From the NCBI GenBank assembly GCA_016186955.1, contig JACPKP010000002.1, positions 5,566-69,565 of the forward strand: a stretch of DNA of 64,000 nt, written 5' to 3'. Positions 4,073 to 56,162 of this stretch are shown here, in pieces. Under the pieces are notes generated by a model, which did no database searches, was not told the origin of the DNA, and saw nothing but the letters and a program-made list of their open reading frames with translations. Numbering within the stretch: the stretch's first letter is position 1; every line of letters starts with the position of its first letter. The DNA comes from Candidatus Daviesbacteria bacterium. Its GTDB lineage: Bacteria > Patescibacteriota > Microgenomatia > Daviesbacterales > UBA10151. The position numbers and the translations under genes were made by a program.

Positions 4073-4711
4073 TCACTTTCTGACAAACACTGTCCTGTCA
4101 ATTTTTGTCATCTGCCCAAATTTGCCTGTTGCAATAACAGATACTATATTCGCTGAAGATGAAAGCTTGATCTCTTCCTGAAAATGGCCCTCTTTGTCAA
4201 CACCTATCTCCTGGTTGTTAACCAAAACCTTATTATCAGGGTCGGTATTGCCCGCAACCATCACTGCGGGGATCTCAACAGATTGGCCTTCTGTTGGGCT
4301 GGTAACTGCTAAGTTAGGTGAACCGACAAACTGCCTGTACTCCAACCAAAGATAGGTAAAAAAACCTAAAATAATTAAAGTCAAAGTAAGCCACACCACC
4401 CTGGATGGGGTGATACGGAACCTGTTTTCACTAATCGGCTTGGAAAAACTCTCCAGCACTACCGGAGGATGTTTTCTGCCCTCAAAATCCCGTCTGAAAA
4501 CCGCCAGCAGTTTTGAAGCATCCAGACCAAGAAATTTGCCATAATTTTTAATAAACCCCTGTATAAAAGTTGCTGGAGGGAGCTTGGAGTAATCACTCTC
4601 CTCCAGGGCTTGTAATAGCTCTTTTCTGATCTTGGTGGTTTTCTCAACGTTTTCTAGGGTAAGCAGTTTATTTTCCCTGGTTTCTCTCAAAATCTGCCCA
4701 ACAGTTCTCAT
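4073..4711 (-). CDS. RodZ-like HTH (XRE-family) membrane protein
   Basis: N-terminal HTH LTLENVEKTTKIRKELLQALEESDYSKLPPATFIQGFIKNYGKFLGLD resembles the RodZ N-domain. A central TM helix and a C-terminal DUF4115-like region follow. Confidence 0.55.
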   Translation of the reverse strand: MRTVGQILRETRENKLLTLENVEKTTKIRKELLQALEESDYSKLPPATFIQGFIKNYGKFLGLDASKLLAVFRRDFEGRKHPPVVLESFSKPISENRFRITPSRVVWLTLTLIILGFFTYLWLEYRQFVGSPNLAVTSPTEGQSVEIPAVMVAGNTDPDNKVLVNNQEIGVDKEGHFQEEIKLSSSANIVSVIATGKFGQMTKIDRTVFVRK

Positions 4712-9935: not shown

Positions 9936-12083
9936 TTATCGTGTAGTAGTACCAAGTTGTGAAGCATTTCCATCACCTTGACCATCAAAATACTCCTCTG
10001 CATTTCTGATTAATACATCCCTGGGTTTTGACCCTTCACCGTGACCAATAATACCAGCGCCTTCAAGCTCATCTATGATCCTGGCAGCCCTGGCGTATCC
10101 CACTTTAAGCCTTCTTTGCAAAAGCGAGGCTGAAGCACGGTCGTACTGACAGACAGTCCTTAAAGCTTCTTCAAACAACTCATCCTGCCCGTCCCCGCCT
10201 GTATTGGCTCCCATCCCCCGGCCAATTCTGCCAATCGGCATCTCTGTCACTTCAGCGGTATATTGGGGCGCCACACCCAACTCTTTCAAATATTTCACCA
10301 GGTTATTGGTCTCAGCATCTGTCACCAAAACACCCTGTATACGCATTGGTTTTGCAGCATCAGGCGGTAAAAACAGCATATCCCCTCTTCCTAAAAGCTT
10401 TTCTGCACCGGGCTGGTCAATAATAACCCTTGAGTCGATCATTGATGAAACATTGAATGCAATCCTGCAGGGAATATTGGCCTTCATCAAACCTGTTATA
10501 ACATCCACCGAAGGCCGTTGTGTTGCCAATATTAGATGTATACCTGTTGCCCTGGCAAGCTGGGCTAAACGGGTAATTGCATCTTCAATTTCAACAGGGG
10601 CAAACATCATCAGGTCTGCCAACTCATCAATGAAGATGGCAATATAAGGCAGAACCTGAAACCCGCTCATTTCGTTGTACCCTGCAATATTCCGCACTCC
10701 AACAGACTGGAAAAGCTTATATCGCCTATCCATCTCCGCCATCGCCCATTTTAGGGCAGACAATATTTTTTCCGGTTCAACTATCACCGGCGCCAGCAGG
10801 TGCGGAATACCATTGTATTGTGTCAACTCCACCCGCTTGGGGTCAATCAAGATTAATTTCATCTCTGCAGGAGAGTTGCGGAACAGCAGGGCGGTAATCC
10901 ACTGGTGGATCAAAATGGATTTTCCGGAGCCGGTTGTACCTGCTACTAAAACATGGGGCATCCTGTCAATATCAACCGTAACCGGATTTGAACCGGTGTC
11001 TTTCCCCAAAGTCACAGCCAGTTTTGACTTATTTTTCTTCATCTCTTCTGAAGCCAAAACAGACTTTAATGTCACTATCTCCAGGGTATGGTTGGGTACT
11101 TCAATCCCTACCAATGATTTACCGGGGATAGGGGCCTCAATCCTGACCGTCCCTGTCCTGGTCGCCAGAGACAAAGCAATATCATGCTGCAAATTGGCAA
11201 TTTTGGCAATTTTGGTGCCAGATGCAATCTCAAGGGCGTATTGGGTGACGGCCGGTCCGCCGTTTACTTCAGCAACTCTTGCCTGGATCCCGAAAGAATC
11301 CAGGGTTTTTTCTATAATGGCTGCGTTTCTCTTAACATCACCCCTGTTGGCAGGAGCGCCGCCTTTATCGGATAACAAATTATACGGGGGGTATCTCCAA
11401 ACCCGTGTTTGGCCTGCCATATTGGCAACCAAGGTGTCTGCCATAACATTCTCCTTTGGTGTTTTTTCAACCGGCTTATATTTTGACCTTTGGTCTTCAA
11501 TTCCGGAAACCTTTAGCGCGCCTTTTACTTCAAACGTTTCCTTTCTTCTGATCACTCCAAAAATTTTTCCCATGAATTTTCCAAGCGCTGCCAGTGATGC
11601 AAAAACTTGAGTAATAAAGTGCAGCGCCTGGGTCAGGTTAGTATTGAGAAAAACAACAAACCCGACTAAAAAAATTCCCAGCAGAAAAACCAACGCACCC
11701 GGGGCAGTCAGCAGGTTTTTTAATTCCTCCCAAACTGTCTGGCCCAAAACCCCGCCGGCCTGAATGCTAAAAATAGCAAAGACCCCCATTAAAGATACCA
11801 TCATGGTGACAAGCCCCAATAAAACATTTGTTTGTGCAAACTGCCACCTGACTCTTTGCAGCACCAGCGAGCAAAGCAGGAAAACTACCGGGGCAAGGAA
11901 TGCCATCAACCCTAAATTGGATATCAAAAATTCCCGCCAAAACGACAGGGCAGAAGCACGGGTTATAAAGGATACTGCTGAAAGGCCTGCCAGGACCAGG
12001 GAGATTATTGAGCCAACAGCCACAACTGTTTTTTGGCGGAGTTTGAGTTTGGGTATCGAGTAGATAGATCTTCGTCTAGGCAT
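9936..12083 (-). CDS. ftsK: DNA translocase FtsK/SpoIIIE
   Basis: N-terminal TM helices, Walker A VLVAGTTGSGKS and a C-terminal gamma-domain-like wHTH (RASASLLQRRLKVGYARAARIIDELE). The ATG at 12081-12083 (MPRRRSIY...) is preferred over the TTG-initiated track start at 12137. Confidence 0.9.
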   Translation of the reverse strand: MPRRRSIYSIPKLKLRQKTVVAVGSIISLVLAGLSAVSFITRASALSFWREFLISNLGLMAFLAPVVFLLCSLVLQRVRWQFAQTNVLLGLVTMMVSLMGVFAIFSIQAGGVLGQTVWEELKNLLTAPGALVFLLGIFLVGFVVFLNTNLTQALHFITQVFASLAALGKFMGKIFGVIRRKETFEVKGALKVSGIEDQRSKYKPVEKTPKENVMADTLVANMAGQTRVWRYPPYNLLSDKGGAPANRGDVKRNAAIIEKTLDSFGIQARVAEVNGGPAVTQYALEIASGTKIAKIANLQHDIALSLATRTGTVRIEAPIPGKSLVGIEVPNHTLEIVTLKSVLASEEMKKNKSKLAVTLGKDTGSNPVTVDIDRMPHVLVAGTTGSGKSILIHQWITALLFRNSPAEMKLILIDPKRVELTQYNGIPHLLAPVIVEPEKILSALKWAMAEMDRRYKLFQSVGVRNIAGYNEMSGFQVLPYIAIFIDELADLMMFAPVEIEDAITRLAQLARATGIHLILATQRPSVDVITGLMKANIPCRIAFNVSSMIDSRVIIDQPGAEKLLGRGDMLFLPPDAAKPMRIQGVLVTDAETNNLVKYLKELGVAPQYTAEVTEMPIGRIGRGMGANTGGDGQDELFEEALRTVCQYDRASASLLQRRLKVGYARAARIIDELEGAGIIGHGEGSKPRDVLIRNAEEYFDGQGDGNASQLGTTTR

Positions 12084-12091
12084 TTTAAAAA

Positions 12092-12200
12092 ATTCGAAAT
12101 ACGAAATACGAAACAAATTCAAATATTTAATTTGCAAATAAATTAAAATTTTTGAATTTAGAATTTAATCATAGTTTCGAGTTTCGATATTCAAATTTCG
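12092..12200. repeat. AT-rich palindromic element (CGAAAT family), intergenic copy upstream of ftsK
   Basis: Left arm cgaaatacgaaatacgaaac and right arm gtttcgagtttcgatattcaaatttcg form an imperfect inverted repeat. A second copy lies inside lepA. Confidence 0.55.
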
Positions 12201-12236
12201 TAATTATATACTAATTATACCATACCCACTATGGGC

Positions 12237-13961
12237 TTAAACCTCCACCACTGTCGTTAAAATAAGCGGGCTTCTTTTGGTTTCCCCATAGAAAAACTTT
12301 TCCAGCTGCTCCTCAATCTGATGCCTGGTATAACGCCAGTCGATGGGAGCTTCACCCCTGCCTTTAAGACAGTTCCTGGCAATGCTTTTAGCCTTTTCAA
12401 TCAACTCCTCTGATTCCTGTTCAAATACAAAACCTCTAGTTATAATATCCGGTTCGCCAGCCACCTGACCGCTTTGCTGCTCAACCGGCACTATGACCAC
12501 AACCACCCCTTCTTCACTCATCACCTGCCTGTCGCGCAATACAATACTGCCCACATCCCCCACCCCTAAACCGTCAACATAAACATTGGATACCGGAATA
12601 AAACCCTCCATTTTGACATTATCTCTCCTGATATTAATAACCTGTCCATCCTGGGCCATTAAAACCTGGTCTTCCCGGTAACCCATACCCTGGGCCATCC
12701 TTGAGAAAGATTTCATATGCCTGAAGGTTCCCCCAATTGGCAGGATATATTTTGGTTTGGCCAAATTTACCATCAATTTTAACTCTTCTGCGGCTGCATG
12801 GCCTGATACATGTAAATCCGAGAGCATGGCGGAATAATAAACATCACACCCGAGTTTGGTAAGTGTATCTATCAAGGCGCTTTGTGCTGACTCAGTGCTG
12901 GGTATCGGGTCAGCGCTGAAAACTACTGAATCTTTTTTACGGAGAGTGACAAATTTATGGTCACTATTGGCAGCCCGGGACAGGGCAGAACCTGGTTGCC
13001 CCTGCGAGCCTGCAATAAGCACCATCAACTTATTATCATGGAAGCGTTTTATTTCTTCCTGAGCTATTACCAAACCCGGCGGTACATCAAGATAACCTAA
13101 ATCCCTTGCCACCTGGAAATTATTTTCCACAGACCTACCTGCTAAAGCTAATCTGCGGCCTGACTTGACACAAACATTGATCGCCTGTTGGATCCTGGTA
13201 ACGTTGGATGATGTCATTGTGATCAATACTTTCCCCTCTGTCTCTTTCTCTACGGAGGCAAAAGTATTCTCAATGGTTTTCTCCGATAGTGTATAACCCT
13301 GTTTCTCCACCCTGAGGCAATCAATGGCCATAAACACCACACCGCTCTCTCCCACCCTTGCCACACTGCCAACATCAGTTACCTGGCCGTTGACAGGGGT
13401 CCAGTCCATTTTAAAATCAGCCTGATGGATAATAGTCCCGACCGGAGTTGATAAAACAATCCCTGTAGAATCCGGTATGGAATGAGAAACCTGATAGAAT
13501 GAAGCGCTAAAAACTCCCAACTGCAGTTTATCTTTTAAACCCACTACCCTGATTTTATCCTTCGGCAGCCTATGTTCGGTAAATTTTGCCCTGATCATGC
13601 CACAAGTCAGTTTCTGTGAATAAATAGGCACCTCACCAAGCTGGGGCCAGATGTATGGCAGACTGCCTATATGGTCATCATGCGCATGGGTTATTAAAAT
13701 CCCCCGTATTTTATGCTTTTTATCTTTTAAATAGGTGATATCCGGGATAACCAAGTCTATCCCAAGCATGCCTTCGTCAGGAAAACCAACTCCGCAATCA
13801 ATGATAACAATATCATTCTCGTATTCATAAACATACATATTTTTAGTAACATCACCCACCCCACCAAGCGGTATTAACTTTAAAATTTTGTTGCCGGAAA
13901 AAGCCGGTGTACCCTTGACCGGTCCATTAAATTGTTTGGGCCTGAAACTTTTTATTTTCAT
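12237..13961 (-). CDS. rnj: Ribonuclease J (beta-CASP metallo-beta-lactamase)
   Basis: Motif ILITHAHDDHIGSLPYIW (HxHxDH) and RNase J-like overall length and order. Confidence 0.9.
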   Translation of the reverse strand: MKIKSFRPKQFNGPVKGTPAFSGNKILKLIPLGGVGDVTKNMYVYEYENDIVIIDCGVGFPDEGMLGIDLVIPDITYLKDKKHKIRGILITHAHDDHIGSLPYIWPQLGEVPIYSQKLTCGMIRAKFTEHRLPKDKIRVVGLKDKLQLGVFSASFYQVSHSIPDSTGIVLSTPVGTIIHQADFKMDWTPVNGQVTDVGSVARVGESGVVFMAIDCLRVEKQGYTLSEKTIENTFASVEKETEGKVLITMTSSNVTRIQQAINVCVKSGRRLALAGRSVENNFQVARDLGYLDVPPGLVIAQEEIKRFHDNKLMVLIAGSQGQPGSALSRAANSDHKFVTLRKKDSVVFSADPIPSTESAQSALIDTLTKLGCDVYYSAMLSDLHVSGHAAAEELKLMVNLAKPKYILPIGGTFRHMKSFSRMAQGMGYREDQVLMAQDGQVINIRRDNVKMEGFIPVSNVYVDGLGVGDVGSIVLRDRQVMSEEGVVVVIVPVEQQSGQVAGEPDIITRGFVFEQESEELIEKAKSIARNCLKGRGEAPIDWRYTRHQIEEQLEKFFYGETKRSPLILTTVVEV

Positions 13962-22403: not shown

Positions 22404-23933
22404 CTATAACGTCCTGAAACTCTGCACTAAATCCCCGATCTGGAAATCAACCTGGGGCTCAAATATCATCCCGCATTCATCCCCCTTTTCAACCTTCACT
22501 ATCTCTTCCTTAACTTTTTTAATGGATTTTATCTTCATCTCTCCTATAACCTTATCTCCACGCACAACCCTTGCCTTTGGCCCTTTTGAAATATTACCGT
22601 CTAAAACCTTACATCCTGCAATCCGCTCGTTTTTGCCATACGGAAATTCTGCCACAATCTGCGCAGTCCCAAAAACCTCCTCAATCGCCCCCACTTTTAA
22701 CATCTCCTCCACTACCTGTTTTAACTCATCAATCAACTCATAAATTATTGTGTAAGTCCTGACTAAAACATGCTCATTTTCTGCAATCTTTTGGGCGGTC
22801 GGGACAACAATACTGTTAAAACCTATCACAATTGACCTAGTTGAGGCAGCAAGTTTTATATCTGATTCCATAATCCCACCTGTCCCTGAAGATATTACCT
22901 TGACATGCTCACCCCCAGTATTAAATCCCTTGAGCGCTTCCTCTATCGCTTCCAACGAACCCTGTTTATCAGCTTTTATCACCACATTCAAAGTTGTGGT
23001 ATCAGCCTGCCTCAATTTATCAATTAAAGATCTGGTTTCACTTGACTCTTGACTCTTGACTCTTGACTCTTCCCCCAGAGCTGCCCCCACCTCAGGCACA
23101 ATTTCCAAACCCAAAACTTCAACCGGTGTTGAGGGGCCGGCGCTGTCAACAGGTTTGCCGGCAAAATCAAACATCCCCCTGATCTTACTTTTAACTCCGC
23201 CCAGCGCTATCTGGTCGCCTTTTCTTAAAGTTCCACTGCGCACCAATATTGTTGCAATCGGGCCTTTAAATTTATCCAGGTTCGCTTCAATTACCACTCC
23301 CACAGGTAAGGCCAGCGGGTCACCTTTGATCTCGTTTAACTCCGCCACCAACAAAATCATCTCCAAAAGTTTATCCACTCCTACCCCTGTTTTTGCTGAA
23401 ACAGGCACAACCGGCACATCCCCTCCATACTCTTCCACCAAAACCTTTTGGTCAGACAATTGTTTTTTAATTTTTTCAGTCTGGACCTTAATATCAATCC
23501 CCGGCAGGTCAATTTTGTTTAAAGCCACTATCATGGAGACTTTAGCTTCCTGGATATGTTTTATAGCTTCCACTGTCTGAGGCATCACCCCATCATCTAA
23601 AGCTACAACCAATACAGCAATATCCGCAACTTTTGCACCTCTTGATCTCATTTTTTCAAAAGCTGCATGGCCCGGAGTATCTATAAAAGTTATCGTATCT
23701 TCCTCATCACTTTTGACTTTTGACTTTTGACTTTTGACTTTTACCTGGTAGGCCCCAATCGCCTGAGTAATCCCACCATGTTCTTTGGCTGCAACAGAAG
23801 ATTTCCTGATAAAATCGAGCAGGGAAGTTTTTCCATGGTCAACATGGCCAAGTATTGTGACTATCGGCGGTCTGGTTTGCTCTGCCATATTTTTTATTTT
23901 TACTACCCTCAAACAAGTTGAGAGATTTCTCAC
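22404..23933 (-). CDS. infB: Translation initiation factor IF-2 (short form starting at the G domain)
   Basis: GHVDHGKTSLLD, DTPGH and NKID G-motifs with downstream IF2 domains. The likely true start is the internal MAEQTRPP. Contains two heptanucleotide-repeat tracts. Confidence 0.9.
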   Translation of the reverse strand: MRNLSTCLRVVKIKNMAEQTRPPIVTILGHVDHGKTSLLDFIRKSSVAAKEHGGITQAIGAYQVKVKSQKSKVKSDEEDTITFIDTPGHAAFEKMRSRGAKVADIAVLVVALDDGVMPQTVEAIKHIQEAKVSMIVALNKIDLPGIDIKVQTEKIKKQLSDQKVLVEEYGGDVPVVPVSAKTGVGVDKLLEMILLVAELNEIKGDPLALPVGVVIEANLDKFKGPIATILVRSGTLRKGDQIALGGVKSKIRGMFDFAGKPVDSAGPSTPVEVLGLEIVPEVGAALGEESRVKSQESSETRSLIDKLRQADTTTLNVVIKADKQGSLEAIEEALKGFNTGGEHVKVISSGTGGIMESDIKLAASTRSIVIGFNSIVVPTAQKIAENEHVLVRTYTIIYELIDELKQVVEEMLKVGAIEEVFGTAQIVAEFPYGKNERIAGCKVLDGNISKGPKARVVRGDKVIGEMKIKSIKKVKEEIVKVEKGDECGMIFEPQVDFQIGDLVQSFRTL

Positions 23934-33841: not shown

Positions 33842-33917
33842 TTGTCATTGCGAGCGATTAGCGTGGCAATCTCGTTTAACAAGATCCTCACGTCGGATGC
33901 ACTCCTCAGGATGACAT
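33842..33917. repeat. GC-type palindromic element (GTCATTGCGAGCG family), intergenic copy
   Basis: tgtcattgcgagcgattagcgtggcaatctcg ... cgtcggatgcactcctcaggatgaca. The arms match elements inside uvrD and at 9595. Confidence 0.5.
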
Positions 33918-34409
33918 TTCCTTCCTCCCTACTACTACCTTAGCTGGCCTCAGCACTTTTCCATTTAAATTATAACCCTTTTCTGCAACTTCTAATATTT
34001 TATCATATTCCCCTTCACGCATATCTACAGCTTCATGTAAGCTTGGATCAAACCTTGTCCCGAGCGAAGTCGAGGGATCTATTTCAATTTCCTCCAAACC
34101 CTCATCCTTCAAAACCTGTTGGAACTGTTTAACCGCAAGCTCCATCCCTTTATACCATCCAGAGGCTTTTTCTTCTTCACTTGCCCCTTCCATAGCCTTC
34201 TCCAAATGGTCCAATACAGCCAAAAGCTTCCTGATTAACTCAGTTGTTGCCCAGTTTGTCAACTCAGATCTCCCCTCAGCCACTCTTTTTTCTAAATTCT
34301 GATAATCAGCCACTGCCCTTTTTAATTGATTCTGCAGATTATCAAAATCCTGCTTTAATTTTTCAAAGTCATCTTTGCTGACCATATTTTCATTTTTCTG
34401 TTTTTTCAT
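33906..34409 (-). CDS. grpE: Nucleotide exchange factor GrpE
   Basis: A coiled-coil N-region followed by VADYQNLEKRVAEGRSELTNWATTELIRKLLAVLDHLEKA. Confidence 0.85.
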   Translation of the reverse strand: MKKQKNENMVSKDDFEKLKQDFDNLQNQLKRAVADYQNLEKRVAEGRSELTNWATTELIRKLLAVLDHLEKAMEGASEEEKASGWYKGMELAVKQFQQVLKDEGLEEIEIDPSTSLGTRFDPSLHEAVDMREGEYDKILEVAEKGYNLNGKVLRPAKVVVGRKEMSS

Positions 34410-34528
34410 AGTTATAACTTAAATCGCAAAACGCAAATCTTAAATCTACATCTAAAATTTAAAAACTTTATAGATTTAATTTTTTAGTTGTAGTTTTGAC
34501 TTTTAACATTTGAGTTTTGAGATCGTTC

Positions 34529-35260
34529 CTACCAGGAACGTAATGCTTGCTCTACCAAATTACTGGTATACCTGACATAAGGCAGGACTACAGGAAAGTT
34601 CAGCCTGGCAGGGCCTATCACCCCCACCACCCCTTCTTTTCCATTCCTTGCCCCAAACTTACAAAACACAAAACTGGTTGGCGCTAAATCCGCATACCCC
34701 AGATCTTCCCCAAACAAGACGTGTAGCGGATCCTGCCCGACTGCCTGGCCTATTATCTGCTTTAAGGTTGGGTACTCATCAAAAAGCGACAGTACAAACC
34801 TGGCAACATCAATGTCTTCAAATTCAGGCCAATCTAAAATATTGGCTGCCCCGGCATAAAACATCTCTCCCTCATCATCAACTGCCAAAGCTAGGATCTG
34901 CAGACGGTGTGCCAAACCCCGGACAGCTTCTTTCAAAAGCCTATTTTCCTTAAACCGCTGCTGCCATAAATTTTCCTTGATGGAAACTTCAGCCGATACA
35001 GGCAGTTCCTTTTCCTTCATCAAATCAGAGATATAAACCCGAAAACCCATGGAAGTAGGAATCCTCCCCGCAGAAGTATGGGGCTGCTTCAAAAAACCCA
35101 TTGTAGTCAAATGCACCATCTCGTTGCGGATTGTAGCAGGGGAAACGCCTAAGCTTGCATGCTTTTCGATAAGTTCTGAACCAATCGGTTCGCCACCTTT
35201 AACATACAATTCAACAACAGCTTTAAGTAAATCTTTTTGCCTACTAGTCAAGTCTGTCAT
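34529..35260 (-). CDS. hrcA: Heat-inducible transcription repressor HrcA
   Basis: LTSRQKDLLKAVVELYVKGGEPIGSELI...ATIRNEMVHLTTMGFLKQPHTSAGRIPT matches the HrcA N-terminal wHTH. Sits upstream of grpE-dnaK. Confidence 0.85.
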   Translation of the reverse strand: MTDLTSRQKDLLKAVVELYVKGGEPIGSELIEKHASLGVSPATIRNEMVHLTTMGFLKQPHTSAGRIPTSMGFRVYISDLMKEKELPVSAEVSIKENLWQQRFKENRLLKEAVRGLAHRLQILALAVDDEGEMFYAGAANILDWPEFEDIDVARFVLSLFDEYPTLKQIIGQAVGQDPLHVLFGEDLGYADLAPTSFVFCKFGARNGKEGVVGVIGPARLNFPVVLPYVRYTSNLVEQALRSW

Positions 35261-38519: not shown

Positions 38520-40445
38520 TTAACTTTTCAAAATAGATAAAAATGCTTCTTGGGGAATCTCTACCCTTCCTATCATCTTCATCTTCTTTTTCCCCTTCTT
38601 TTGTTTTTCCAACAACTTATCTTTCCTAGTCCTGTCACCCCCATAAAGTTTAGCTGTCACATCTTTCCTAAAAGGTGAGATTGTCTCCCTGGCGATAATT
38701 GTTCCCCCTATTGCAGCCTGGATTGCTACCGCAAAATTCTGACGGGGCAGAACCTCTTTTAATTTTTCTACCATCCGCCGGCCAACGGATTCAGCCTTCG
38801 GCCTGACCACTACTGTTGTTAGTGCATCCACTTTTTCCCTTCCCACTAAAATATCAACCTTTACGGCGTCTACCTCCCTAAAATCTAAAAATTCCCAATC
38901 CAATGATGCAAACCCGCTTGAGACTGATTTTAATTTATCGTAAAAATCCGTAATCATCTCTGACAGGGGCATCTCATAAAAAAGTTCTACCTGAAATCCG
39001 AAGTGAGTCATATTCAAAAATTTCCCCCGCCTTTCCTGCACCAACTCCATCACCAAACCGATAAAATTATTGGGTGCAAAAACTTTTAAACTGACCCAAG
39101 GTTCTTTCAGGTTTCTCATATTACTCAAATCCAATTCAGCCGGATTATTAATAAGCTGCTCACCAACCATATATGCTACTGACGGCACAGTTGCTAAAAG
39201 GTTAACTCCGAATTCTGCAGACAGTCTTTGCTGCACAACTTCTGCATGTAGCAGCCCCAAAAATCCGCATCTGAAACCTGAGCCCAAAGCAGCTGATTGT
39301 TCCTGTTCAAAGATAAAAGCCGGGTCATTTAATTCAAATTTAGACAGCGCCTCTTTCAGCTCAAAATATTCTGATGCCTCAATCGGATAGAACCCCACAA
39401 ACACCATTGGTTTTACAGTTTTGTATCCGGGCAATGGTACAACTTTTGAAACATCGCCATTAATCCATTCTTCCAACTTTTCACTTTTCACTTTACGCTT
39501 TAAGCTTGTTATAGTGTCACCTACATAAACCAGATCCGGCTCTTTAATCCCTGTTGCAATATACCCTATCTCCCCGCTTTGTAGGCTTTCACAAGACACC
39601 AGTTGTGGTGAAAAATAACCCACTTCCAAAATTTGCCCTTCTGCTTTTGTCCCCAAAAAATAAATTGGGGATTGCTCTTTTGGCGTCTCACCATCAAATA
39701 TTCTAACTTGGGCAATTACACCCTTATAAGGATCAAAAAATGAATCAAAAATCAGAGCCCGAAGGTGTGAACCTATGACACCCGACGGGTAGTTTAGGTT
39801 GACACCCTTACTCCCAGGTGGTGGAACACGTTCAATAATCCTTCCCAAAATCTCCTCAACACCTTGCCCTGTTTTACCGGATGCAAGTAAAATTTCCTCC
39901 CCTGAAAACCCGAAAGTTGCAACTAATTCTTTTTTACATTTTTCCACATCAGCATTTGGCAAATCTATTTTATTTATAACAGGTATCAGAGTTAGGTTTT
40001 GCTCCAATGCGGATAAACCATGCGCCAATGTCTGTGCCTGAATCCCCTGCGTGGCATCCACCAAAAGCACTGCCCCCTCAACTGCAGCTAAAGCCCTGGA
40101 AACCTCATAAGAAAAATCAACATGCCCGGGAGTATCGATCAGATTCAAAATATACTCTCCTGAATCTGGAAACTCGAAATTCGAAGCACGAATATCGAAA
40201 TTTTGATCATTCGCATTTTGATAATTAGAATTTGTTTCGGATTTCGGATTTCGATATTCGTATTTTAGTCTTACTGGCGCAAGCTTGATAGTAATACCTC
40301 GCTCACGCTCAAGCGCCAAAGAATCCAACAACTGGGGTTTCATTTTGTCAGGCGCAACAGTGTGGCAGATCTCCAAAAACCTGTCAGCTAGAGTTGATTT
40401 GCCATGGTCAACGTGGGCAATAATCGAGAAGTTCCTAATATTCAT
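38520..40445 (-). CDS. lepA: Elongation factor 4 (LepA) carrying an in-frame ~30-aa insertion encoded by a palindromic element
   Basis: IAHVDHGKSTLADR, DTPGHVDF, NKIDL and the LepA C-terminal domain. The insertion NPKSETNSNYQNANDQNFDIRASNFEFPDSG lies between the G1 and G3 regions and coincides with the palindromic repeat. Confidence 0.95.
   Translation of the reverse strand: MNIRNFSIIAHVDHGKSTLADRFLEICHTVAPDKMKPQLLDSLALERERGITIKLAPVRLKYEYRNPKSETNSNYQNANDQNFDIRASNFEFPDSGEYILNLIDTPGHVDFSYEVSRALAAVEGAVLLVDATQGIQAQTLAHGLSALEQNLTLIPVINKIDLPNADVEKCKKELVATFGFSGEEILLASGKTGQGVEEILGRIIERVPPPGSKGVNLNYPSGVIGSHLRALIFDSFFDPYKGVIAQVRIFDGETPKEQSPIYFLGTKAEGQILEVGYFSPQLVSCESLQSGEIGYIATGIKEPDLVYVGDTITSLKRKVKSEKLEEWINGDVSKVVPLPGYKTVKPMVFVGFYPIEASEYFELKEALSKFELNDPAFIFEQEQSAALGSGFRCGFLGLLHAEVVQQRLSAEFGVNLLATVPSVAYMVGEQLINNPAELDLSNMRNLKEPWVSLKVFAPNNFIGLVMELVQERRGKFLNMTHFGFQVELFYEMPLSEMITDFYDKLKSVSSGFASLDWEFLDFREVDAVKVDILVGREKVDALTTVVVRPKAESVGRRMVEKLKEVLPRQNFAVAIQAAIGGTIIARETISPFRKDVTAKLYGGDRTRKDKLLEKQKKGKKKMKMIGRVEIPQEAFLSILKS
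40165..40270. repeat. AT-rich palindromic element (CGAAAT family), copy inserted in-frame within lepA
   Basis: aaactcgaaattcgaagcacgaatatcgaaatttt ... gtttcggatttcggatttcgatattcgtatttt. The arms are reverse complements and match the intergenic copy at 12092-12200. Confidence 0.6.
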
Positions 40446-51180: not shown

Positions 51181-52347
51181 CTATTTCTCAAGCTCCCCTT
51201 TGATAAACTCTTTAATAATTGAAAAATCATTACCAGGCGGTATTAAAACGTATGCTCCTCCATAATCGGCAGCAGGAGGATTGATTAATATTGATTTTCC
51301 AGTCCCCAAATCCCCTAACACTAAACTTTTAACCCCATCAACATCTTTGACCAACTTATAAAAATCCAGAAACCTTTCCAGCGGAATATCTGTCTCAAAG
51401 CTCTTCCCGAAAGTTTTAATAAGTTCGCTTATTTTTTGCGGATTAGTCAATGTTTGTATTGACAAAACCTTATCCCTAAAAGACTGCAGGACCAGTTGCT
51501 GCCTGCGGGAACGGGCAAAATCAGACCCTTCACTGTTTGTCCCCATCCTTGAACGCACAAATTTTAAAGCCTCTGCACCGTCCATATGTTGGATACCCTG
51601 CTCAAAATGGATGTGTTCAAAACGGCATCCAAAATCAGCAGCGCTGGTTGCAATTTTTTCCTGTAAGTCCACCAAGACTTTGTTTTTGCCTGGTTTTAAA
51701 TTCAGGGACGGGGCATTTAAATCCTGTATCTGGCCTGCAGAAAGTTCAACGTCTTTTTCTACCAACCCGCAAAGTTCGTCTTCTTTGCCTTCAATAGGGT
51801 AGTTGAAGTCATCAAAAGTTTTAGGGATTTTAACATCGATACCTTCCACAAGGTCAATGGCCCTGGCAAAGCCACTAAAATCAAGCCTCACCCCGTAATG
51901 GATGGGAACACCTAATATGTCATCAATCTTATCTTCGGCAAACTTCAAACCATTACCCTCGTTTTTAGGGCTAAGGCCTATTTCATAAGCGGCATTGACT
52001 TTAGCGGATATTGAAGAAAGCCATAAATCCCTTGGCACGGATATTAAAATTACCTGGTGGGTTTTAAGGTGATAGGACGCTATGATCATAGAATCTGTCA
52101 ACTGTGCGCCTGCATGGGTTCCGCCTGCAATACCAAGCAATAAAACATTAACCCGATCATTGGTGGATTTGAGGCCGCTGTTTGAAAAAACAAACTGAAA
52201 GACTGAAGATGTTGAGGTTAAAATAGACCAAACAACAACACAGCCAATTATTATTGAAACCGCAACCAGGAGTTTTTCAAATTTTTTTGCAAAAAAACCA
52301 CTGGTCTGGGTTTGTTGTAGTTTTAGTTTTTTTAGTTTAAAATCCAC
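51181..52347 (-). CDS. LytR-CpsA-Psr (LCP) family cell-wall polymer transferase
   Basis: VNVLLLGIAGG...DSMIIASYHLKTHQVILISVPRDLWL is the LCP core motif, with an N-terminal TM. Confidence 0.75.
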   Translation of the reverse strand: MDFKLKKLKLQQTQTSGFFAKKFEKLLVAVSIIIGCVVVWSILTSTSSVFQFVFSNSGLKSTNDRVNVLLLGIAGGTHAGAQLTDSMIIASYHLKTHQVILISVPRDLWLSSISAKVNAAYEIGLSPKNEGNGLKFAEDKIDDILGVPIHYGVRLDFSGFARAIDLVEGIDVKIPKTFDDFNYPIEGKEDELCGLVEKDVELSAGQIQDLNAPSLNLKPGKNKVLVDLQEKIATSAADFGCRFEHIHFEQGIQHMDGAEALKFVRSRMGTNSEGSDFARSRRQQLVLQSFRDKVLSIQTLTNPQKISELIKTFGKSFETDIPLERFLDFYKLVKDVDGVKSLVLGDLGTGKSILINPPAADYGGAYVLIPPGNDFSIIKEFIKGELEK

Positions 52348-53008
52348 TGCACTCCTTGATAATTTTTAGGAATTCCTGAGGGTCCAGAGAAGATTTTCCA
52401 ATCAGCAGCCCGCTGATATTCTCCTGGTTTACAAAATCTTTGCAGTTTGCGCTGGTAGCGCTCCCGCCGTATAAAACTTCCAAGTCTTGACCATACTTGT
52501 CTTTCAAGGCCTTGGCAATTAGGTTAGCATTTTCAGGTGTATCAGGATTACCTGTGCCTATGGCAAAAACAGGCTCATAGGCTGCTAGTTTACATTTACC
52601 AGGTATAGGCACATCCGATCCCTGGACACAAACCAAGGGTATGATATCATGCGCTATGGCTTCATCCACTTTTTTTGCAACCATCTCATCCGTTTCATGA
52701 AAATTTTGTCTTCTTTCCGAGTGGCCTAAGATAGCCAAATCCACAAATTGCTTTAATATTGAGGCTGCCTCCTCACCTGTATAAGCGCCTTCCTCAAAAG
52801 GTGACAGGTCCTGGGATCCCACGAGCATTTGATAATTTCCCACCTTAATTTTTTTTGCCACCTCTTCCAGGGAACTAAATGTGGGACAAACCACGACTTT
52901 CAAGTTTTCCCCCTTTACCAACTTAGGCCCCACCTGCTCCACCCATTCCAAAACCTCCATCAAATTCTTATTGGATTTGAAATTAGCAATAATCCACAAA
53001 TGCTTCAT
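52337..53008 (-). CDS. tpiA: Triosephosphate isomerase
   Basis: ANFK, GHSERR, AYEPVFAIGTG and YGGS motifs. Confidence 0.9.
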   Translation of the reverse strand: MKHLWIIANFKSNKNLMEVLEWVEQVGPKLVKGENLKVVVCPTFSSLEEVAKKIKVGNYQMLVGSQDLSPFEEGAYTGEEAASILKQFVDLAILGHSERRQNFHETDEMVAKKVDEAIAHDIIPLVCVQGSDVPIPGKCKLAAYEPVFAIGTGNPDTPENANLIAKALKDKYGQDLEVLYGGSATSANCKDFVNQENISGLLIGKSSLDPQEFLKIIKECSGF

Positions 53009-53209
53009 AATTTTAAATTTAAAATTTTTAATTTGAACTGAAATTTAAATTTTTAAAATTAAACAAATGAAAATTCATTGAAAATTGAGAATTCGAAGTT
53101 CATTTATGAACTTCTCCAATCCATCCATACTTTTTCAAGTCTATCAGAATAAGTAGTCACCTTGCCATAAGGAATTTTTTTACAATCTGAATAATCTTTT
53201 GTTTAAAGT

Positions 53210-54113: not shown

Positions 54114-56162
54114 ATGCCCAATTTACTTGATGATTTAAACCCTATCCAACAGAAAGCAGTCCAAACCACAGAGGGTCCGACCCTAATCCTGGCTGGAGCA
54201 GGTTCAGGAAAAACGCGGGTTTTAACTTATAAAGTGGCTTTTCTAATCTCCGAGAAAAAAATCCAACCGGAAAATATTTTAGTTGTGACTTTCACCAACA
54301 AAGCCAGCGGCGAAATGAAAAATCGCATCCTCAATTTGCTCTCCAACAACCAACAACCAGTAACCAGTAACCAACCTGTGATGGGTACATTCCATTCCAT
54401 CTGCGCCAAAATCCTGCGCCGCGAAGGCCACAATATCGGCCTTAGTATTTCCTTTACAATCTACGATGAAAACGACGCCATGGATGCGGTAAAACTTGCC
54501 ATGGGTAATTTAAACATAGCCACCAAACAGGTAAATCCGGGCGCTGTCAGACATACAATTTCCGGCGCCAAAAATGAACTGGTTTCCGAACTTGAATATC
54601 CCCAATATGCCCGCGGTTTTTTCCAGGAAACTGCCGCTAAAATTTATCTGGAATATCAAAAAATCTTAAGGGAAAACCAGGCATTGGATTTTGATGATCT
54701 ACTCATGAAAACTATCCAGCTTTTTCAGACCGTTCCAATAGTCCTCACCCGTTACCAAAACCAATTTAAATATGTTTTGGTTGATGAATACCAAGACACC
54801 AACGCTGCCCAATACCAGTTAATTAAACTCCTGGTTCAAAGATACAGGAATATATGTGTAGTTGGTGATGCTTCCCAGGCAATTTATGGTTTCAGGGGAG
54901 CAGATTTTCGCAACATTGTTAATTTCCAAAAAGACTATCCGGAAACTAAAGTGTTTAACCTGGAGCAAAATTACCGTTCAACCCAAATTATTTTGGATGT
55001 AGCCCAGGCCGTAATTTCTGAAAATAAACTTCACCCAATTCTAAAACTTTGGACAGAAAAAAAAGTGGGTCCCAAAATTGCCGTCTATCAGGCTAGATCT
55101 GAAGTGGATGAGGCTGTCTTTATTTTAGATGAGATCAGGAAGTTTGCGAGGGGTGGCGGAGGACGGGGAGCCCCATCAACCGCCCGCATCCTGAGTGACC
55201 GAAGGGAGTCGAATGAGAGGACGTCGGATGGGGCTGTCCTCCGACAGGACCCCGAGCAAAATACATTAACCCTTGCTGATTTTGCAATTTTGTACAGAAC
55301 CAATGCCCAATCCCGGGCAATTGAAGAAGTTTTCCTGAAGGCTGGCGTACCTTATAGACTGGTTGGTGGCGTCCAGTTTTATGAGAGAAGAGAGATCAAA
55401 GATGTTTTGGCTTATCTTAGATTAGCAGCAAATCCCAAGGACTCTGTTGCCAAAAAAAGGATCGAAAAATTAGGCAAAGGCCGCGCCCAAAAATTTTATG
55501 AACTGGCAGACGTCATTGCGAGCGGAGCGAAGCAATTTCAAAAAAACGAGATTGCCACGTCCTCCGATGTCCATCGGAGTCCTCGCAATGACGGATACCA
55601 CACTTTACAGCTCATGGACTTAATCCTAGAAAAAACAGGCTATTTAGAATATCTTGATGACGGGACAGAACAGGGCAGGTCCAGAATTGAAAATGTTAAA
55701 GAACTCCGTTCTGTGGCGGAACAATTTCCCAATTTAGTACAGTTTTTAGAAAATGTAGCTTTAGTACAGGATAATTACCATCCAGACCAACAATCAACAA
55801 CCAACACCCAACTACCAACTGACGCAGTGACTTTAATGACCTTACATGCCTCCAAAGGTCTGGAATTCCCCACAGTTTTTATTGTTGGCATGGAGGAAGG
55901 TTTATTCCCTCATTCCAGATCTATGCTAAACTCCAATGAAATGGAAGAGGAAAGAAGGCTGGCTTATGTGGGAATTACCAGGGCAAAACAACAACTTTAC
56001 CTAACCTATACCAGGACCAGGCTTTATTTTGGCACCAGGTCTAATAATTTAGTTTCCAGATTTTTAGGTTCGATTCCTGAAAATTTACTGGATCAAAAAT
56101 TTTCTTCAAAACTTATTGACCCCGATCTAATCGGGGTTGACGAAGATGATTGGCTTAATTAA
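54114..56162 (+). CDS. uvrD: ATP-dependent DNA helicase UvrD/PcrA carrying two in-frame palindromic-element insertions
   Basis: Walker A AGAGSGKTRVLT, motif TFTNKA, QDTN and LEQNYRS. The preferred start is MPNLLDDLNPIQ. Inserts are GGGGRGAPSTARILSDRRESNERTSDGAVLRQDPEQ and DVIASGAKQFQKNEIATSSDVHRSPRNDG. Confidence 0.9.
   Translation: MPNLLDDLNPIQQKAVQTTEGPTLILAGAGSGKTRVLTYKVAFLISEKKIQPENILVVTFTNKASGEMKNRILNLLSNNQQPVTSNQPVMGTFHSICAKILRREGHNIGLSISFTIYDENDAMDAVKLAMGNLNIATKQVNPGAVRHTISGAKNELVSELEYPQYARGFFQETAAKIYLEYQKILRENQALDFDDLLMKTIQLFQTVPIVLTRYQNQFKYVLVDEYQDTNAAQYQLIKLLVQRYRNICVVGDASQAIYGFRGADFRNIVNFQKDYPETKVFNLEQNYRSTQIILDVAQAVISENKLHPILKLWTEKKVGPKIAVYQARSEVDEAVFILDEIRKFARGGGGRGAPSTARILSDRRESNERTSDGAVLRQDPEQNTLTLADFAILYRTNAQSRAIEEVFLKAGVPYRLVGGVQFYERREIKDVLAYLRLAANPKDSVAKKRIEKLGKGRAQKFYELADVIASGAKQFQKNEIATSSDVHRSPRNDGYHTLQLMDLILEKTGYLEYLDDGTEQGRSRIENVKELRSVAEQFPNLVQFLENVALVQDNYHPDQQSTTNTQLPTDAVTLMTLHASKGLEFPTVFIVGMEEGLFPHSRSMLNSNEMEEERRLAYVGITRAKQQLYLTYTRTRLYFGTRSNNLVSRFLGSIPENLLDQKFSSKLIDPDLIGVDEDDWLN
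55141..55245. repeat. GC-rich palindromic element inserted in-frame in uvrD (copy A)
   Basis: Inverted repeats catcctgagtgac / gtcctccgacaggac and tcggatg...cctccga. GC-rich against AT-rich flanking codons. Confidence 0.55.
55510..55593. repeat. GTCATTGCGAGCG-family palindromic element inserted in-frame in uvrD (copy B)
   Basis: cgtcattgcgagcggagcgaagcaatttc...gagattgccacgtcctccgatgtccatcggagtcctcgcaatgacg has perfect outer 12-bp inverted termini and nested inner palindromes. Confidence 0.65.

What the first reader, a model, noticed from the sequence alone, without database searches (positions are those of the whole stretch)
40165..40270. LepA carries an in-frame insertion encoded by a second (AT-rich, CGAAAT-type) palindromic element family
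Between the conserved RLKY and ILNLIDTPGH regions, LepA has an extra ~30 aa (NPKSETNSNYQNANDQNFDIRASNFEFPDSG). The nucleotide sequence is a near-perfect palindrome: aaactcgaaattcgaagcacgaatatcgaaatttt ... gtttcggatttcggatttcgatattcgtatttt. The same arms (cgaaatacgaaatacgaaac ... gtttcgagtttcgatattc) occur in non-coding DNA at 12092-12200 upstream of ftsK. So a mobile or proliferating palindromic element has colonised both an intergenic site and an essential translation GTPase without breaking the frame.
Basis: seen in the sequence. Interest (0 to 1): 0.65.

Follow-up and report, generated by a model that had tools for sequence, protein, structure and literature searches.

The report
Translated heptamer-armed palindrome inside LepA
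A 96-base palindromic repeat built from seven-base units sits in frame inside the translation-factor gene lepA of a Candidate Phyla Radiation bacterium. It belongs to a repeat family whose arms are nearly the same in distant bacterial phyla, so it resembles the "protein-coding palindromes" so far associated mainly with Rickettsia.

Summary
LepA (38520-40445, minus strand; Ca. Daviesbacteria) carries about 30 extra residues in the beta2-beta3 hairpin of its G domain. They are encoded by a 96-nt imperfect palindrome (40170-40265). Each arm is four tandem heptamers (AAATNCG x4 + AAAC). A second copy (12087-12205) fills the rnj-ftsK spacer.

This is not a local family: a profile built only from copies in other phyla (Planctomycetota, Desulfobacterota, Verrucomicrobiota, other CPR) finds all four window arms (E 2e-9 to 3e-3). 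One Thermoguttaceae copy shares 38 identical bases. Copies also occur on IMG/VR contigs. Elements are 96-186 nt, end sharply in AAAT...ATTT, show no target-site duplication and usually abut gene 3' ends.

The lepA copy looks old rather than freshly transposed. Eight orthologues share its junctions and centre. Its third-codon positions are 88% identical where the rest of the gene is 45%. In 48 of 50 metagenomic LepA genes of the same junction type the loop holds an insert, usually a heptamer-periodic palindrome, with differing unit sequences.

The insert is predicted disordered and is absent from solved EF4 structures. Mobility is not shown. The closest analogue is the Rickettsia palindromic elements, but this is not a member. 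No published description was found.

The parts
38520..40445 (-). lepA (EF4), 641 aa, intact ORF that hosts the element
   Evidence: ORF list. Pfam GTP_EFTU 6.8e-50, LepA_C 6.3e-46, EFG_C 5.8e-20. Identical protein named elongation factor 4, Ca. Daviesbacteria.
40170..40265 (-). Palindromic heptamer-repeat element copy, 96 nt, codons K61-F92 (KYEYRNPKSETNSNYQNANDQNFDIRASNFEF). It adds about 29-30 aa net to the beta2-beta3 hairpin loop of the G domain.
   Evidence: Sequence. Ends set by alignment to 19 other copies. No counterpart in solved EF4 structures. pLDDT <50 for residues 69-93, between strands 57-64 and 96-104.
40234..40265 (-). Sense-strand 5' arm: AAATACG AATATCG AAATCCG AAATCCG AAAC
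   Evidence: Profile built from other phyla only: hit 40265-40223, E 1.9e-9. 38 of 40 matches to the family consensus. 38 contiguous bases identical to the Thermoguttaceae copy L097.
40202..40233 (-). Centre of the element (AAATTCTAATTATCAAAATGCGAATGATCAAA), made of degenerate heptamers
   Evidence: The centre is shared with the lepA copies L001 and L002 but not with the window's intergenic copy.
40170..40201 (-). Sense-strand 3' arm: ATTTCG ATATTCG TGCTTCG AATTTCG AGTTT (reverse complement of the CGAAAT units)
   Evidence: Profile hit 40175-40200 (+), E 1.1e-4. Inverted repeats I1-I4.
12087..12205 (.). Second copy, 119 nt. It fills the spacer between the RNase J stop (12237) and the FtsK start (12083-12081).
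   Evidence: Profile hits 12090-12124 (+) E 5.5e-7 and 12202-12174 (-) E 2.7e-3. RNA fold z -4.1 / -3.0. Flanking genes by Pfam.
12087..12118 (+). Left arm of the intergenic copy (AAAAAATTCGAAATACGAAATACGAAACAAAT)
12174..12205 (+). Right arm of the intergenic copy (GTTTCGAGTTTCGATATTCAAATTTCGTAATT)

Best explanation
**What it is.** Bases 40170-40265 are a copy of a widely distributed palindromic repeat element of about 100-190 nt. Each of its 32-36-nt terminal arms is a tandem array of four heptanucleotides followed by a short conserved tail. The left-arm consensus is AAATyCG AAATyCG AAnnnCG AAATyCG AAAC AAATyC. The right arm is its reverse complement.

**What it does in intergenic DNA.** There the family sits right after gene 3' ends, like a hairpin of the terminator or 3'-UTR type. 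The rnj-ftsK copy at 12087-12205 has this context.

**What it does in lepA (inferred).** The copy lies in the beta2-beta3 hairpin loop of the G domain. It is a multiple of three long and stop-free. It is therefore most likely translated as a disordered, hydrophilic loop of about 30 residues that the protein tolerates. This loop is one of three permissive insertion sites in these LepA proteins.

**How it got there (inferred).** The copy was probably acquired once in an ancestor of a Microgenomates LepA lineage. It has since been lost in many lineages or reshaped in place. Repeat-unit turnover within an arm would come from slippage or conversion between tandem heptamers. Arm-to-arm correction would come from template switching at a quasi-palindrome.

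**Shown versus inferred.**
- Shown: family membership, reading frame, position in the fold, phyletic pattern, nucleotide-level conservation.
- Inferred: translation, neutrality, single origin, the turnover mechanism.
For: **Family membership**
- Arms of 20 copies from many phyla align without gaps and with sharp ends.
- A profile that excludes all window and lepA copies finds all four window arms.
- Full elements also occur on IMG/VR contigs.

**Context of intergenic copies**
- They lie 0-85 nt from a gene 3' end in nearly all cases.
- Several sit between convergent genes, and none is clearly between divergent genes.

**Frame and codon content**
- Both arms are stop-free in all six frames. The whole element is open in three of six.
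- 50 of 52 metagenomic loci keep GITI...DTPGH in one frame across the insert.

**Passenger loop**
- Absent from solved EF4 structures.
- pLDDT <50, between two strands.
- Three insertion hotspots exist in LepA: after residues 63-68, 184-186 and 276-280. The window protein has inserts at all three.
- Other orthologues carry unrelated GC-rich palindromes in the same loop, with MFE -63 and -52 kcal/mol.

**Single old origin**
- Eight orthologues share the junctions and the centre.
- The profile finds no other copy in their flanking DNA.
- 48 of 50 LepA genes with the DSEY junction carry an insert. Period 7 is the top period in 38 of 43 long loops, and the inverted repeat is significant in 28 of 43, with differing units.

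**mRNA hairpin not favoured**
- The sense-strand fold has z -1.36.
- The antisense strand folds more stably in 37 of 42 loops, p 2e-7.
Against: - The insert is far better conserved than a neutral passenger should be. Window vs L001 is 91% identical, and 88% at third codon positions. The rest of lepA is 69% and 45%.
- Its 5' arm still matches the cross-phylum consensus at 38 of 40 positions.
- Both points suggest either a recent arrival or a constraint acting on the DNA or RNA itself.
- The distribution is patchy. P0009 carries the insert but is 94% identical outside the loop to five orthologues without it. A single origin therefore needs many clean losses.
- Arm co-variation is incomplete. L005 and L006 changed both arms in a complementary way, but L003 changed only one arm.
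- Translation of the insert has not been observed.
- The 64-kb window gives no real copy number for this genome.
Confidence: 0.6

Rival explanations
1. The palindrome is a functional nucleic-acid element kept by selection inside lepA. It could be a DNA hairpin or cruciform, or an array of heptamer sites bound by a conserved factor. It could also be an RNA structure, possibly on the antisense strand, that tunes lepA expression.
For: - Third-position identity is 79-88% inside the insert and 43-45% in the rest of the gene, with a sharp boundary at the element ends.
- Across 43 loops the palindromic, 7-nt-periodic build persists while the unit sequence differs.
- Arms are complementary-variant in L005 (CCAAAT/ATTTGG) and L006 (CTAAAT/ATTTAG).
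- AT-rich arms are kept in genomes of up to 71% GC.
Against: - The sense-strand fold is not better than shuffles (z -1.36).
- The sense strand folds less stably than the antisense in 37 of 42 loops.
- 79 of 117 orthologues have no insert, and others carry unrelated palindromes.
- Loop length ranges from 25 to 69 aa.
- There is no Rfam match.
- RNAalifold gives only -3.8 kcal/mol.
Confidence: 0.2
2. Independent, recent, site-directed insertions. The element, and other palindromic families, repeatedly target this lepA loop in different lineages in a homing-like way.
For: - The distribution is patchy. Carriers are not each other's nearest relatives, and P0009 is 94% identical to empty-site orthologues.
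- At least three unrelated palindrome types occupy the same loop.
- The arms are near the family consensus.
- Copies occur on viral contigs, which could act as vectors.
Against: - There is no target-site duplication.
- The lepA copies share a centre and junctions that the same genome's intergenic copy lacks.
- No other copies occur near lepA in the other genomes.
- The LepA tree at this depth is star-like, with a mean of 77% identity, so patchiness is weak evidence.
- No enzyme is encoded in 96 nt.
Confidence: 0.15
3. Purely local origin. A heptanucleotide simple-sequence repeat expanded in the loop and became palindromic by template switching, with no link to a dispersed family.
For: - Heptanucleotide arrays are common in this window's genes, including IF-2, UvrD and a second site in lepA.
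- They are reported as the most abundant long-unit repeats in bacteria (PMC4679880).
Against: - A profile from other phyla hits the arm at E 1.9e-9.
- The irregular units (GAATATC, GAAGCAC) and the AAACAAATyC tail are shared with copies in Planctomycetota and Desulfobacterota.
Confidence: 0.05
4. The extra loop is an adaptive protein feature of LepA, for example a contact surface. The palindrome would be incidental.
For: An insert is present in 48 of 50 LepA genes of the DSEY junction type.
Against: - The peptide sequence and length are highly variable.
- The loop is predicted disordered.
- Conservation sits at synonymous sites, not at the peptide level.
Confidence: 0.05

Closest known systems
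Rickettsia palindromic elements (RPE; Ogata et al. 2000 and 2002, as summarised in PMC10969869)
   Same: Both are palindromic repeats of about 100-150 bp found in intergenic DNA and in frame inside unrelated housekeeping ORFs. Both are placed where the protein fold tolerates them and are presumed to be translated.
   Different: RPEs are reported from Rickettsia only. This family spans many phyla. Its arms are tandem heptanucleotides, which is not described for RPEs. Sequence relatedness to RPE consensus sequences was not tested. The lepA copy appears long-lived in one site.
Bacterial MITEs (Correia/NEMIS, ERIC, Coxiella QMITE, cyanobacterial MITEs)
   Same: All are short, non-coding and have terminal inverted repeats with a variable centre. 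All have multiple copies, sit mostly in intergenic DNA and occasionally fuse in frame with ORFs (PMC10969869, PMC5896051).
   Different: No target-site duplication appears in 20 copies. No parent insertion sequence is known. The inverted repeats are internally repetitive heptamer arrays.
REP / BIME / REPIN elements
   Same: Both are intergenic palindromes located after gene 3' ends, with a possible role as an mRNA 3' hairpin.
   Different: REPs are 20-40 nt, GC-rich and carry a GTAG or CGTC tag, with links to RAYT transposases (PMC3733652, PMC3116915). These arms are AT-rich, carry no such tag, and no RAYT link was examined.
Heptanucleotide tandem repeats (cyanobacterial STRR, from memory; TAACTGA repeats of Beggiatoaceae, PMC4679880; Geobacter heptanucleotide elements, PMC2700814)
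   Same: Both have a 7-nt unit, are mostly intergenic, show a scattered cross-phylum distribution and have no known function.
   Different: Those are direct arrays. Here two opposed arrays with a conserved irregular unit and tail form a delimited palindromic element.
Terminator-like dispersed repeats (e.g. SPRITE of S. pneumoniae, named in PMC10969869) and intrinsic bidirectional terminators
   Same: Both sit just after stop codons and between convergent genes. In GC-rich genomes some copies have a central GC hairpin followed by a T run, for example L032.
   Different: The two window copies lack a GC-rich stem and a T run, and the consensus scan does not call the intergenic copy a terminator. 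The lepA copy cannot act as a terminator if the gene is expressed.

Membership tests
Rickettsia palindromic elements (RPE) | Palindromic repeat of about 100-150 bp present in several copies | tested here: met
   96-nt and 119-nt copies in the window. Other copies are 96-186 nt.
Rickettsia palindromic elements (RPE) | Inserted in frame in protein-coding genes at sites compatible with the fold | tested here: met
   The lepA ORF is intact. The insert lies between two strands, has pLDDT <50 and is absent from solved EF4 structures.
Rickettsia palindromic elements (RPE) | Sequence homology to an RPE family consensus; occurrence in Rickettsia | not tested
   No RPE sequences were available in the tools. 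The host is a CPR bacterium and the arms are heptamer arrays, so membership is not claimed.
MITE | Terminal inverted repeats flanking a short non-coding core | tested here: met
   32-36-nt conserved arms in inverted orientation with sharp ends.
MITE | Target-site duplication flanking the element | tested here: not met
   Flanks of 20 copies, aligned in register, show no direct repeat. GAATAT flanks the insert in L001 and L002, but the left GAATAT is part of the canonical arm.
MITE | Related autonomous insertion sequence with matching ends | not tested
   No transposase search was possible. blastn found no match in the plasmid or phage collections.
REP / REPIN | 20-40-nt GC-rich palindrome with a GTAG or CGTC tag; RAYT association | tested here: not met
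   The arms are AT-rich (the element is 30% GC), begin with AAAT and carry no such tag. RAYT association was not examined.
Heptanucleotide simple-sequence repeats | Tandem copies of a 7-nt unit | tested here: met
   TRF finds period 7 at 12090-12113, 12173-12187 and 40235-40265. Period 7 is the top period in 38 of 43 LepA loops.
Intrinsic terminator | GC-rich stem-loop followed by a T run | tested here: not met
   The consensus scan of 11800-12500 does not call the element. Some copies in GC-rich genomes do have such a centre, by inspection.
Any Rfam RNA family | Score at or above the gathering threshold | tested here: not met
   No hit in the window or in four loci with full elements. Only sub-threshold hairpin (miRNA-precursor) matches appear at E >= 0.076.

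The most novel reading that the evidence does not exclude
**The family.** It may be an undescribed, cross-phylum class of heptamer-armed palindromic elements. It also occurs on viral contigs and lacks a target-site duplication. Its AT-rich arms would then be held near one consensus, from 42%-GC CPR genomes to 71%-GC Planctomycetes, by a shared constraint. That constraint could be a conserved binding factor or an unusual way of moving or of self-correcting.

**The host genomes.** CPR genomes may carry protein-coding palindromes on a scale comparable to Rickettsia. In this window LepA and UvrD carry in-frame palindromes, and LepA, IF-2 and UvrD carry in-frame heptamer arrays.

**The lepA loop.** It would then be a long-lived palindrome that is actively kept palindromic while its repeat unit changes.
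Probability: 0.3. Interest if true: 0.8.

Novelty: new variant of a known kind. Interest (0 to 1): 0.62.

Why it matters
**Protein-coding palindromes.** They have been treated as a Rickettsia peculiarity. A second, independent case in streamlined CPR genomes would suggest a more general link between small genomes, repeat invasion and new protein loops. Here the case covers several housekeeping genes in one 64-kb window.

**The repeat family.** The arms are about 90% alike in phyla as far apart as CPR, Planctomycetota and Desulfobacterota. The family carries no target-site duplication and sits at gene 3' ends. That points to a conserved partner or mechanism that has not been described. It could be searched for directly by testing which protein families co-occur with the element.

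**Annotation.** These inserts inflate protein lengths and produce many low-complexity peptides (RNPKSEIRN, FEFRASNFEF) in metagenomic protein sets.

Tried and rejected
- **Rfam.** The gathering threshold gave nothing on the window or on four loci. The permissive search gave only weak miRNA-precursor hairpin matches.
- **Literature.** String searches for the arm sequence and its peptides returned only unrelated primer hits. Searches on CPR plus palindromic or MITE terms found no description.
- **Peptide and profile searches for other proteins with the same insert.** The first query was too short. A 42-aa query gave one irrelevant hit. An 8-sequence loop profile gave no hit at E <= 1e-3.
- **Neighbour-joining tree of 117 LepA proteins.** It is star-like, with all pairs near 77% identity. 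It was not used for gain/loss counts, and pairwise identities were used instead.
- **Raw hit counts from the collection scans.** By my own estimate about 140 chance hits are expected in 596 Gb for this pattern. The counts therefore prove nothing. Because the search pattern came from the window copies, only similarity outside the 20-nt pattern was counted as evidence.
- **Variant-heptamer scans of viral contigs.** They saturated and were uninformative.
- **blastn of a full element against the plasmid and phage collections.** No match, but the low-complexity filter may have contributed.
- **RNAalifold on eight lepA inserts.** The consensus is weak (-3.8 kcal/mol), because repeated units allow many pairing registers.
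- **Candidates in the window at 34420-34525 and 53008-53061.** Both are heptamer-like AT-rich palindromes, but the family profile does not hit them, so they are not counted as members.
- **parS-like site.** Considered because of the GAAACA half-site. Rejected because the halves are 40-120 nt apart.
Full report
**1. What is in the sequence**

The window comes from a Candidatus Daviesbacteria (CPR, Microgenomates) contig. Its LepA protein is identical to a database entry named elongation factor 4 of that group. lepA is the intact 641-aa ORF 38520-40445 on the minus strand, with GTP_EFTU, EFG_C and LepA_C domains.

Between the conserved RGITI (G2) and DTPGH (G3) motifs the protein has 50 residues. 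Of 117 close orthologues, 79 have exactly 21. HMMER alignment to solved EF4 structures (Thermus 5imq, E. coli 3cb4, Aquifex 2ywe) leaves residues 66-92 unmatched.

The DNA under the insert is an inverted repeat whose arms are 7-nt tandem arrays. The palindrome is imperfect: 27-nt arms at 78% complementarity, with a 14-nt perfect core. 'Near-perfect' is therefore too strong.

The pattern (CGAA-N3)x3 occurs 8 times in the window, against 0.11 in shuffles. All 8 are at two loci, on both strands of each: the lepA insert and 12087-12205. The second locus fills the spacer between the RNase J stop and the FtsK start codon. The two copies share CGAAAT-n-CGAAAT-n-CGAAACAAATTC-n-AAT at 27 of 30 bases.

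**2. The family is not local**

By my own estimate about 140 chance hits are expected in 596 Gb, and the pattern was derived from the window. Neither the count nor the 20 matched bases is evidence.

What counts lies outside the pattern:
- About 20 loci hold a forward array followed 30-120 nt later by the inverted array.
- The host genomes include Planctomycetota, Desulfobacterota, Verrucomicrobiota, Omnitrophota, Binatia, and the CPR groups Doudnabacteria and Parcubacteria. Array-bearing loci in Saccharibacteria and Fibrobacterota were also seen.
- The 40 arms align without gaps to AAATyCG AAATyCG AA(ATy/GCA/TAT)CG AAATyCG AAAC AAATyC. Beyond the terminal AAAT the flanks are unrelated.
- The sense-strand 5' arm of the lepA copy matches this consensus at 38 of 40 positions. 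It is identical over 38 contiguous bases to a Thermoguttaceae copy.

A profile HMM built only from arms of other phyla finds both arms of both window loci. The E-values are 1.9e-9 and 1.1e-4 in lepA, and 5.5e-7 and 2.7e-3 in the spacer.

Further properties of the family:
- Elements are 96-186 nt long and show no target-site duplication.
- Full elements also occur on eight IMG/VR contigs.
- blastn finds none in curated plasmid or phage records.
- Rfam has no matching family.
- Text searches found no description.
- Host loci range from 45% to 71% GC, while the arms stay AT-rich.

**3. Context of intergenic copies**

In about 20 intergenic copies the element lies 0-85 nt from the 3' end of at least one gene, often within 7 nt of the stop. 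Several lie between convergent genes, and none is clearly between divergent genes. In GC-rich genomes the centre is often a GC hairpin with a T run.

This is the context of terminator-like or 3'-UTR hairpin repeats such as REP and SPRITE. The window's spacer copy has the same context, 32 nt after the RNase J stop. It lacks a GC stem and is not called a terminator by the consensus scan. It does fold significantly better than shuffles (z -4.1 and -3.0).

**4. The lepA copy as part of the protein**

The element covers codons K61-F92. Both arms contain no stop codon in any of the six frames, and the whole element is open in three of six. Any insertion whose length is a multiple of three therefore has a good chance of keeping an ORF open.

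An AlphaFold2 model (mean pLDDT 70.7) places residues 69-93 at pLDDT <50 between strands 57-64 and 96-104. This is the tip of the beta2-beta3 hairpin.

Across the 120 retrieved orthologues, insertions of at least 5 aa cluster at three sites. They fall after reference residues 63-68 (37 sequences), 184-186 (54) and 276-280 (29). The window protein has inserts at all three, of 29, 10 and 17 aa, and all three are low-confidence in the model.

In other orthologues the same loop holds unrelated GC-rich palindromes with GTCAT...ATGAC ends. P0066 and P0061 have MFE values of -63 and -52 kcal/mol. The loop is thus a permissive site that collects palindromic DNA.

**5. Age and evolution of the lepA copy**

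Eight of 117 orthologues carry the same insert type. Their DNA shares both junctions, KY(E/K)Y on the left and xDS(G)EY on the right. It also shares a centre, AAATTCnAATnnTCAAAAT...AATGAyCAAAA, which the window's own intergenic copy lacks. The family profile finds no other copy in about 90 kb around lepA in these genomes. This favours one origin at this site over repeated draws from a genomic pool.

The carriers are nevertheless not each other's nearest relatives. P0009 is 94% identical outside the loop to five orthologues with a 21-aa loop. The tree at this depth is unresolved.

The insert is also much better conserved than its host gene:

| Comparison | Insert identity | Insert, third codon positions | Rest of lepA | Rest of lepA, third positions |
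|---|---|---|---|---|
| Window vs L001 | 91% | 88% | 69% | 45% |
| Window vs L002 | 86% | 79% | 68% | 43% |

In the more diverged carriers the heptamer itself differs:
- L005: CCAAAT on the left and ATTTGG on the right, complementary.
- L006: CTAAAT and ATTTAG, complementary.
- L003: only one arm changed.

A metagenome scan for the lepA right junction gave 52 loci:
- 50 of them read through from GITI to DTPGH in one frame.
- 48 of those 50 carry an insert, with loops of 25-69 aa.
- Among 43 loops of at least 36 aa (a few of them near-duplicates), period 7 is the strongest period in 38.
- The inverted repeat beats 99% of shuffles in 28 of the 43.
- The repeat units differ widely: CGAAATC, CCAAATC, CTAAATC, TTTCCAA/TTGAAAA, AACGACA/GTCATnA, AATGCyA/GCATTCA, GTATCAA/TTGATAC and CATTGAA/TCCAATG.

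So the build (two opposed heptamer arrays) outlives the sequence.

As RNA, the sense strand folds less stably than the antisense strand in 37 of 42 loops (Wilcoxon p 2e-7). The window copy's sense fold is not better than dinucleotide shuffles (z -1.36). A hairpin in the lepA mRNA is therefore unlikely to be what is preserved.

**6. Interpretation**

Best supported: the insert is a member of a widespread heptamer-armed palindromic repeat family that entered a permissive LepA loop. It is translated as a disordered extension, persisted in part of the Microgenomates, and was repeatedly lost or reshaped.

The concerted change of units within an arm fits conversion or slippage among tandem repeats. 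The partial arm-to-arm matching fits template switching at quasi-palindromes, a known mutational route (from general knowledge). Both steps are inferred.

The excess nucleotide conservation is not explained by a neutral passenger. It keeps two rivals alive: a constraint acting on the DNA or RNA itself, and recent site-directed re-insertion. A purely local origin is largely excluded by the cross-phylum profile match. A protein-level function is unlikely, given disorder, variability and synonymous-site conservation.

**7. Comparison with known systems**

The phenomenon works like the Rickettsia palindromic elements. According to the review PMC10969869, those are about 150-bp palindromes, and nearly half are inserted in frame in unrelated genes at structurally tolerated sites. 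Membership is not claimed, because the host, the arm structure and the distribution all differ, and sequence relatedness was not tested.

- It fails the MITE criterion of a target-site duplication.
- It fails the REP criteria of a GC-rich short palindrome with a GTAG or CGTC tag.
- Its arms meet the definition of heptanucleotide tandem repeats. Those are known to be abundant and scattered across phyla with unknown function (PMC4679880, PMC2700814). The delimited palindromic composite with a conserved irregular unit and tail was not found described.

**8. Verdict**

I rate it a new variant of a known kind, with moderate to high interest. The interest rests on three points:
- the cross-phylum conservation of the arms;
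- the persistence of a palindrome inside a conserved GTPase gene;
- the several in-frame repeat-derived inserts in other housekeeping genes of the same window.

Noticed in passing
window 55500-55595 (arms 55504-55522 / 55582-55600), inside uvrD/pcrA 54117-56162 (+): An in-frame GC-rich palindrome (GTCATTGCGAG...CTCGCAATGAC) encodes ELADVIASGAKQFQKNEIATSSDVHRSPRNDG. RNA fold is -44.7 kcal/mol, z -6.3. Similar GTCAT...ATGAC palindromes fill the LepA loop in other Daviesbacteria.
   Followed up: partly
window 55146-55259, inside uvrD: A second in-frame insert (ARGGGGRGAPSTARILSDRRESNERTSDGAVLRQDPEQ) is encoded by a strong palindrome with MFE -54.6 kcal/mol.
   Followed up: partly
window 23691-23756 (array 23706-23746), inside infB (IF-2) 22404-23933 (-): A direct heptamer array (CAAAAGT x4.9 on the coding strand) encodes KVKSQKSKVKSD between GITQAIGAY and TFIDTPGH. 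By position between the G2 and G3 motifs this is the loop homologous to the LepA insertion site, in a second translational GTPase. It has no inverted partner.
   Followed up: partly
window 23038-23074, inside infB: A second heptamer array in IF-2 (CTTGACT x4.4 on the plus strand), around the peptide ESRVKSQESS.
   Followed up: no
window 39450-39500 (array 39474-39502) and 39777-39806, inside lepA: LepA has two further insertions relative to 585-aa orthologues. One is KRKVKSEKLEEWINGDV, partly encoded by GAAAAGT heptamers. The other is GVNLNYPSGV. Both sit at sites where many orthologues also carry inserts, and both have pLDDT <50.
   Followed up: partly
window 34420-34525, spacer between hrcA (34529-35260, -) and grpE (33906-34409, -): An AT-rich palindrome with heptamer-like arms (CTCAAAA / TTTTGAG type). 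It folds as one long hairpin (-23.2 kcal/mol, z -3.0). The build and intercistronic context match the rnj-ftsK copy, but the family profile does not hit it.
   Followed up: partly
window 54343-54375 and 55786-55812, inside uvrD: Two more period-7 arrays (CCAACAA / ACCAACA) lie within coding sequence.
   Followed up: no
window 53004-53061, spacer upstream of the ORF 52337-53008 (-): A very AT-rich low-complexity palindrome with period 6-7 (TAATTTTAAATTTAAAATTTTTAATT / AACTGAAATTTAAATTTTTAAAATTA).
   Followed up: no
L007 170-260, L018 about 520-545, L041 about 350-375, L126 about 445-475, L008 about 4660-4690: By reading the translations, short AAATCCG arrays or half elements lie in frame in what look like other housekeeping genes of other phyla. 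These look like ValRS, UvrA, phosphoglucomutase, an ABC ATPase and RecJ, with peptides such as RNPKSEIRN. The gene identities were not checked with Pfam.
   Followed up: no
L085 5530-5630 and 6529-6632 (Parcubacteria contig): Two full family members lie about 1 kb apart on one contig, each within 5 nt of a gene 3' end.
   Followed up: no
L001 1303-1329, L002 2576-2610 (uvrD); L002 16013-16048 (grpE start); L001 5250-5283: Other Daviesbacteria genes also carry in-frame heptamer arrays (for example GGTTATA and AAAGTGA units). This suggests a genome-wide habit of 7-nt repeats within coding sequence.
   Followed up: no
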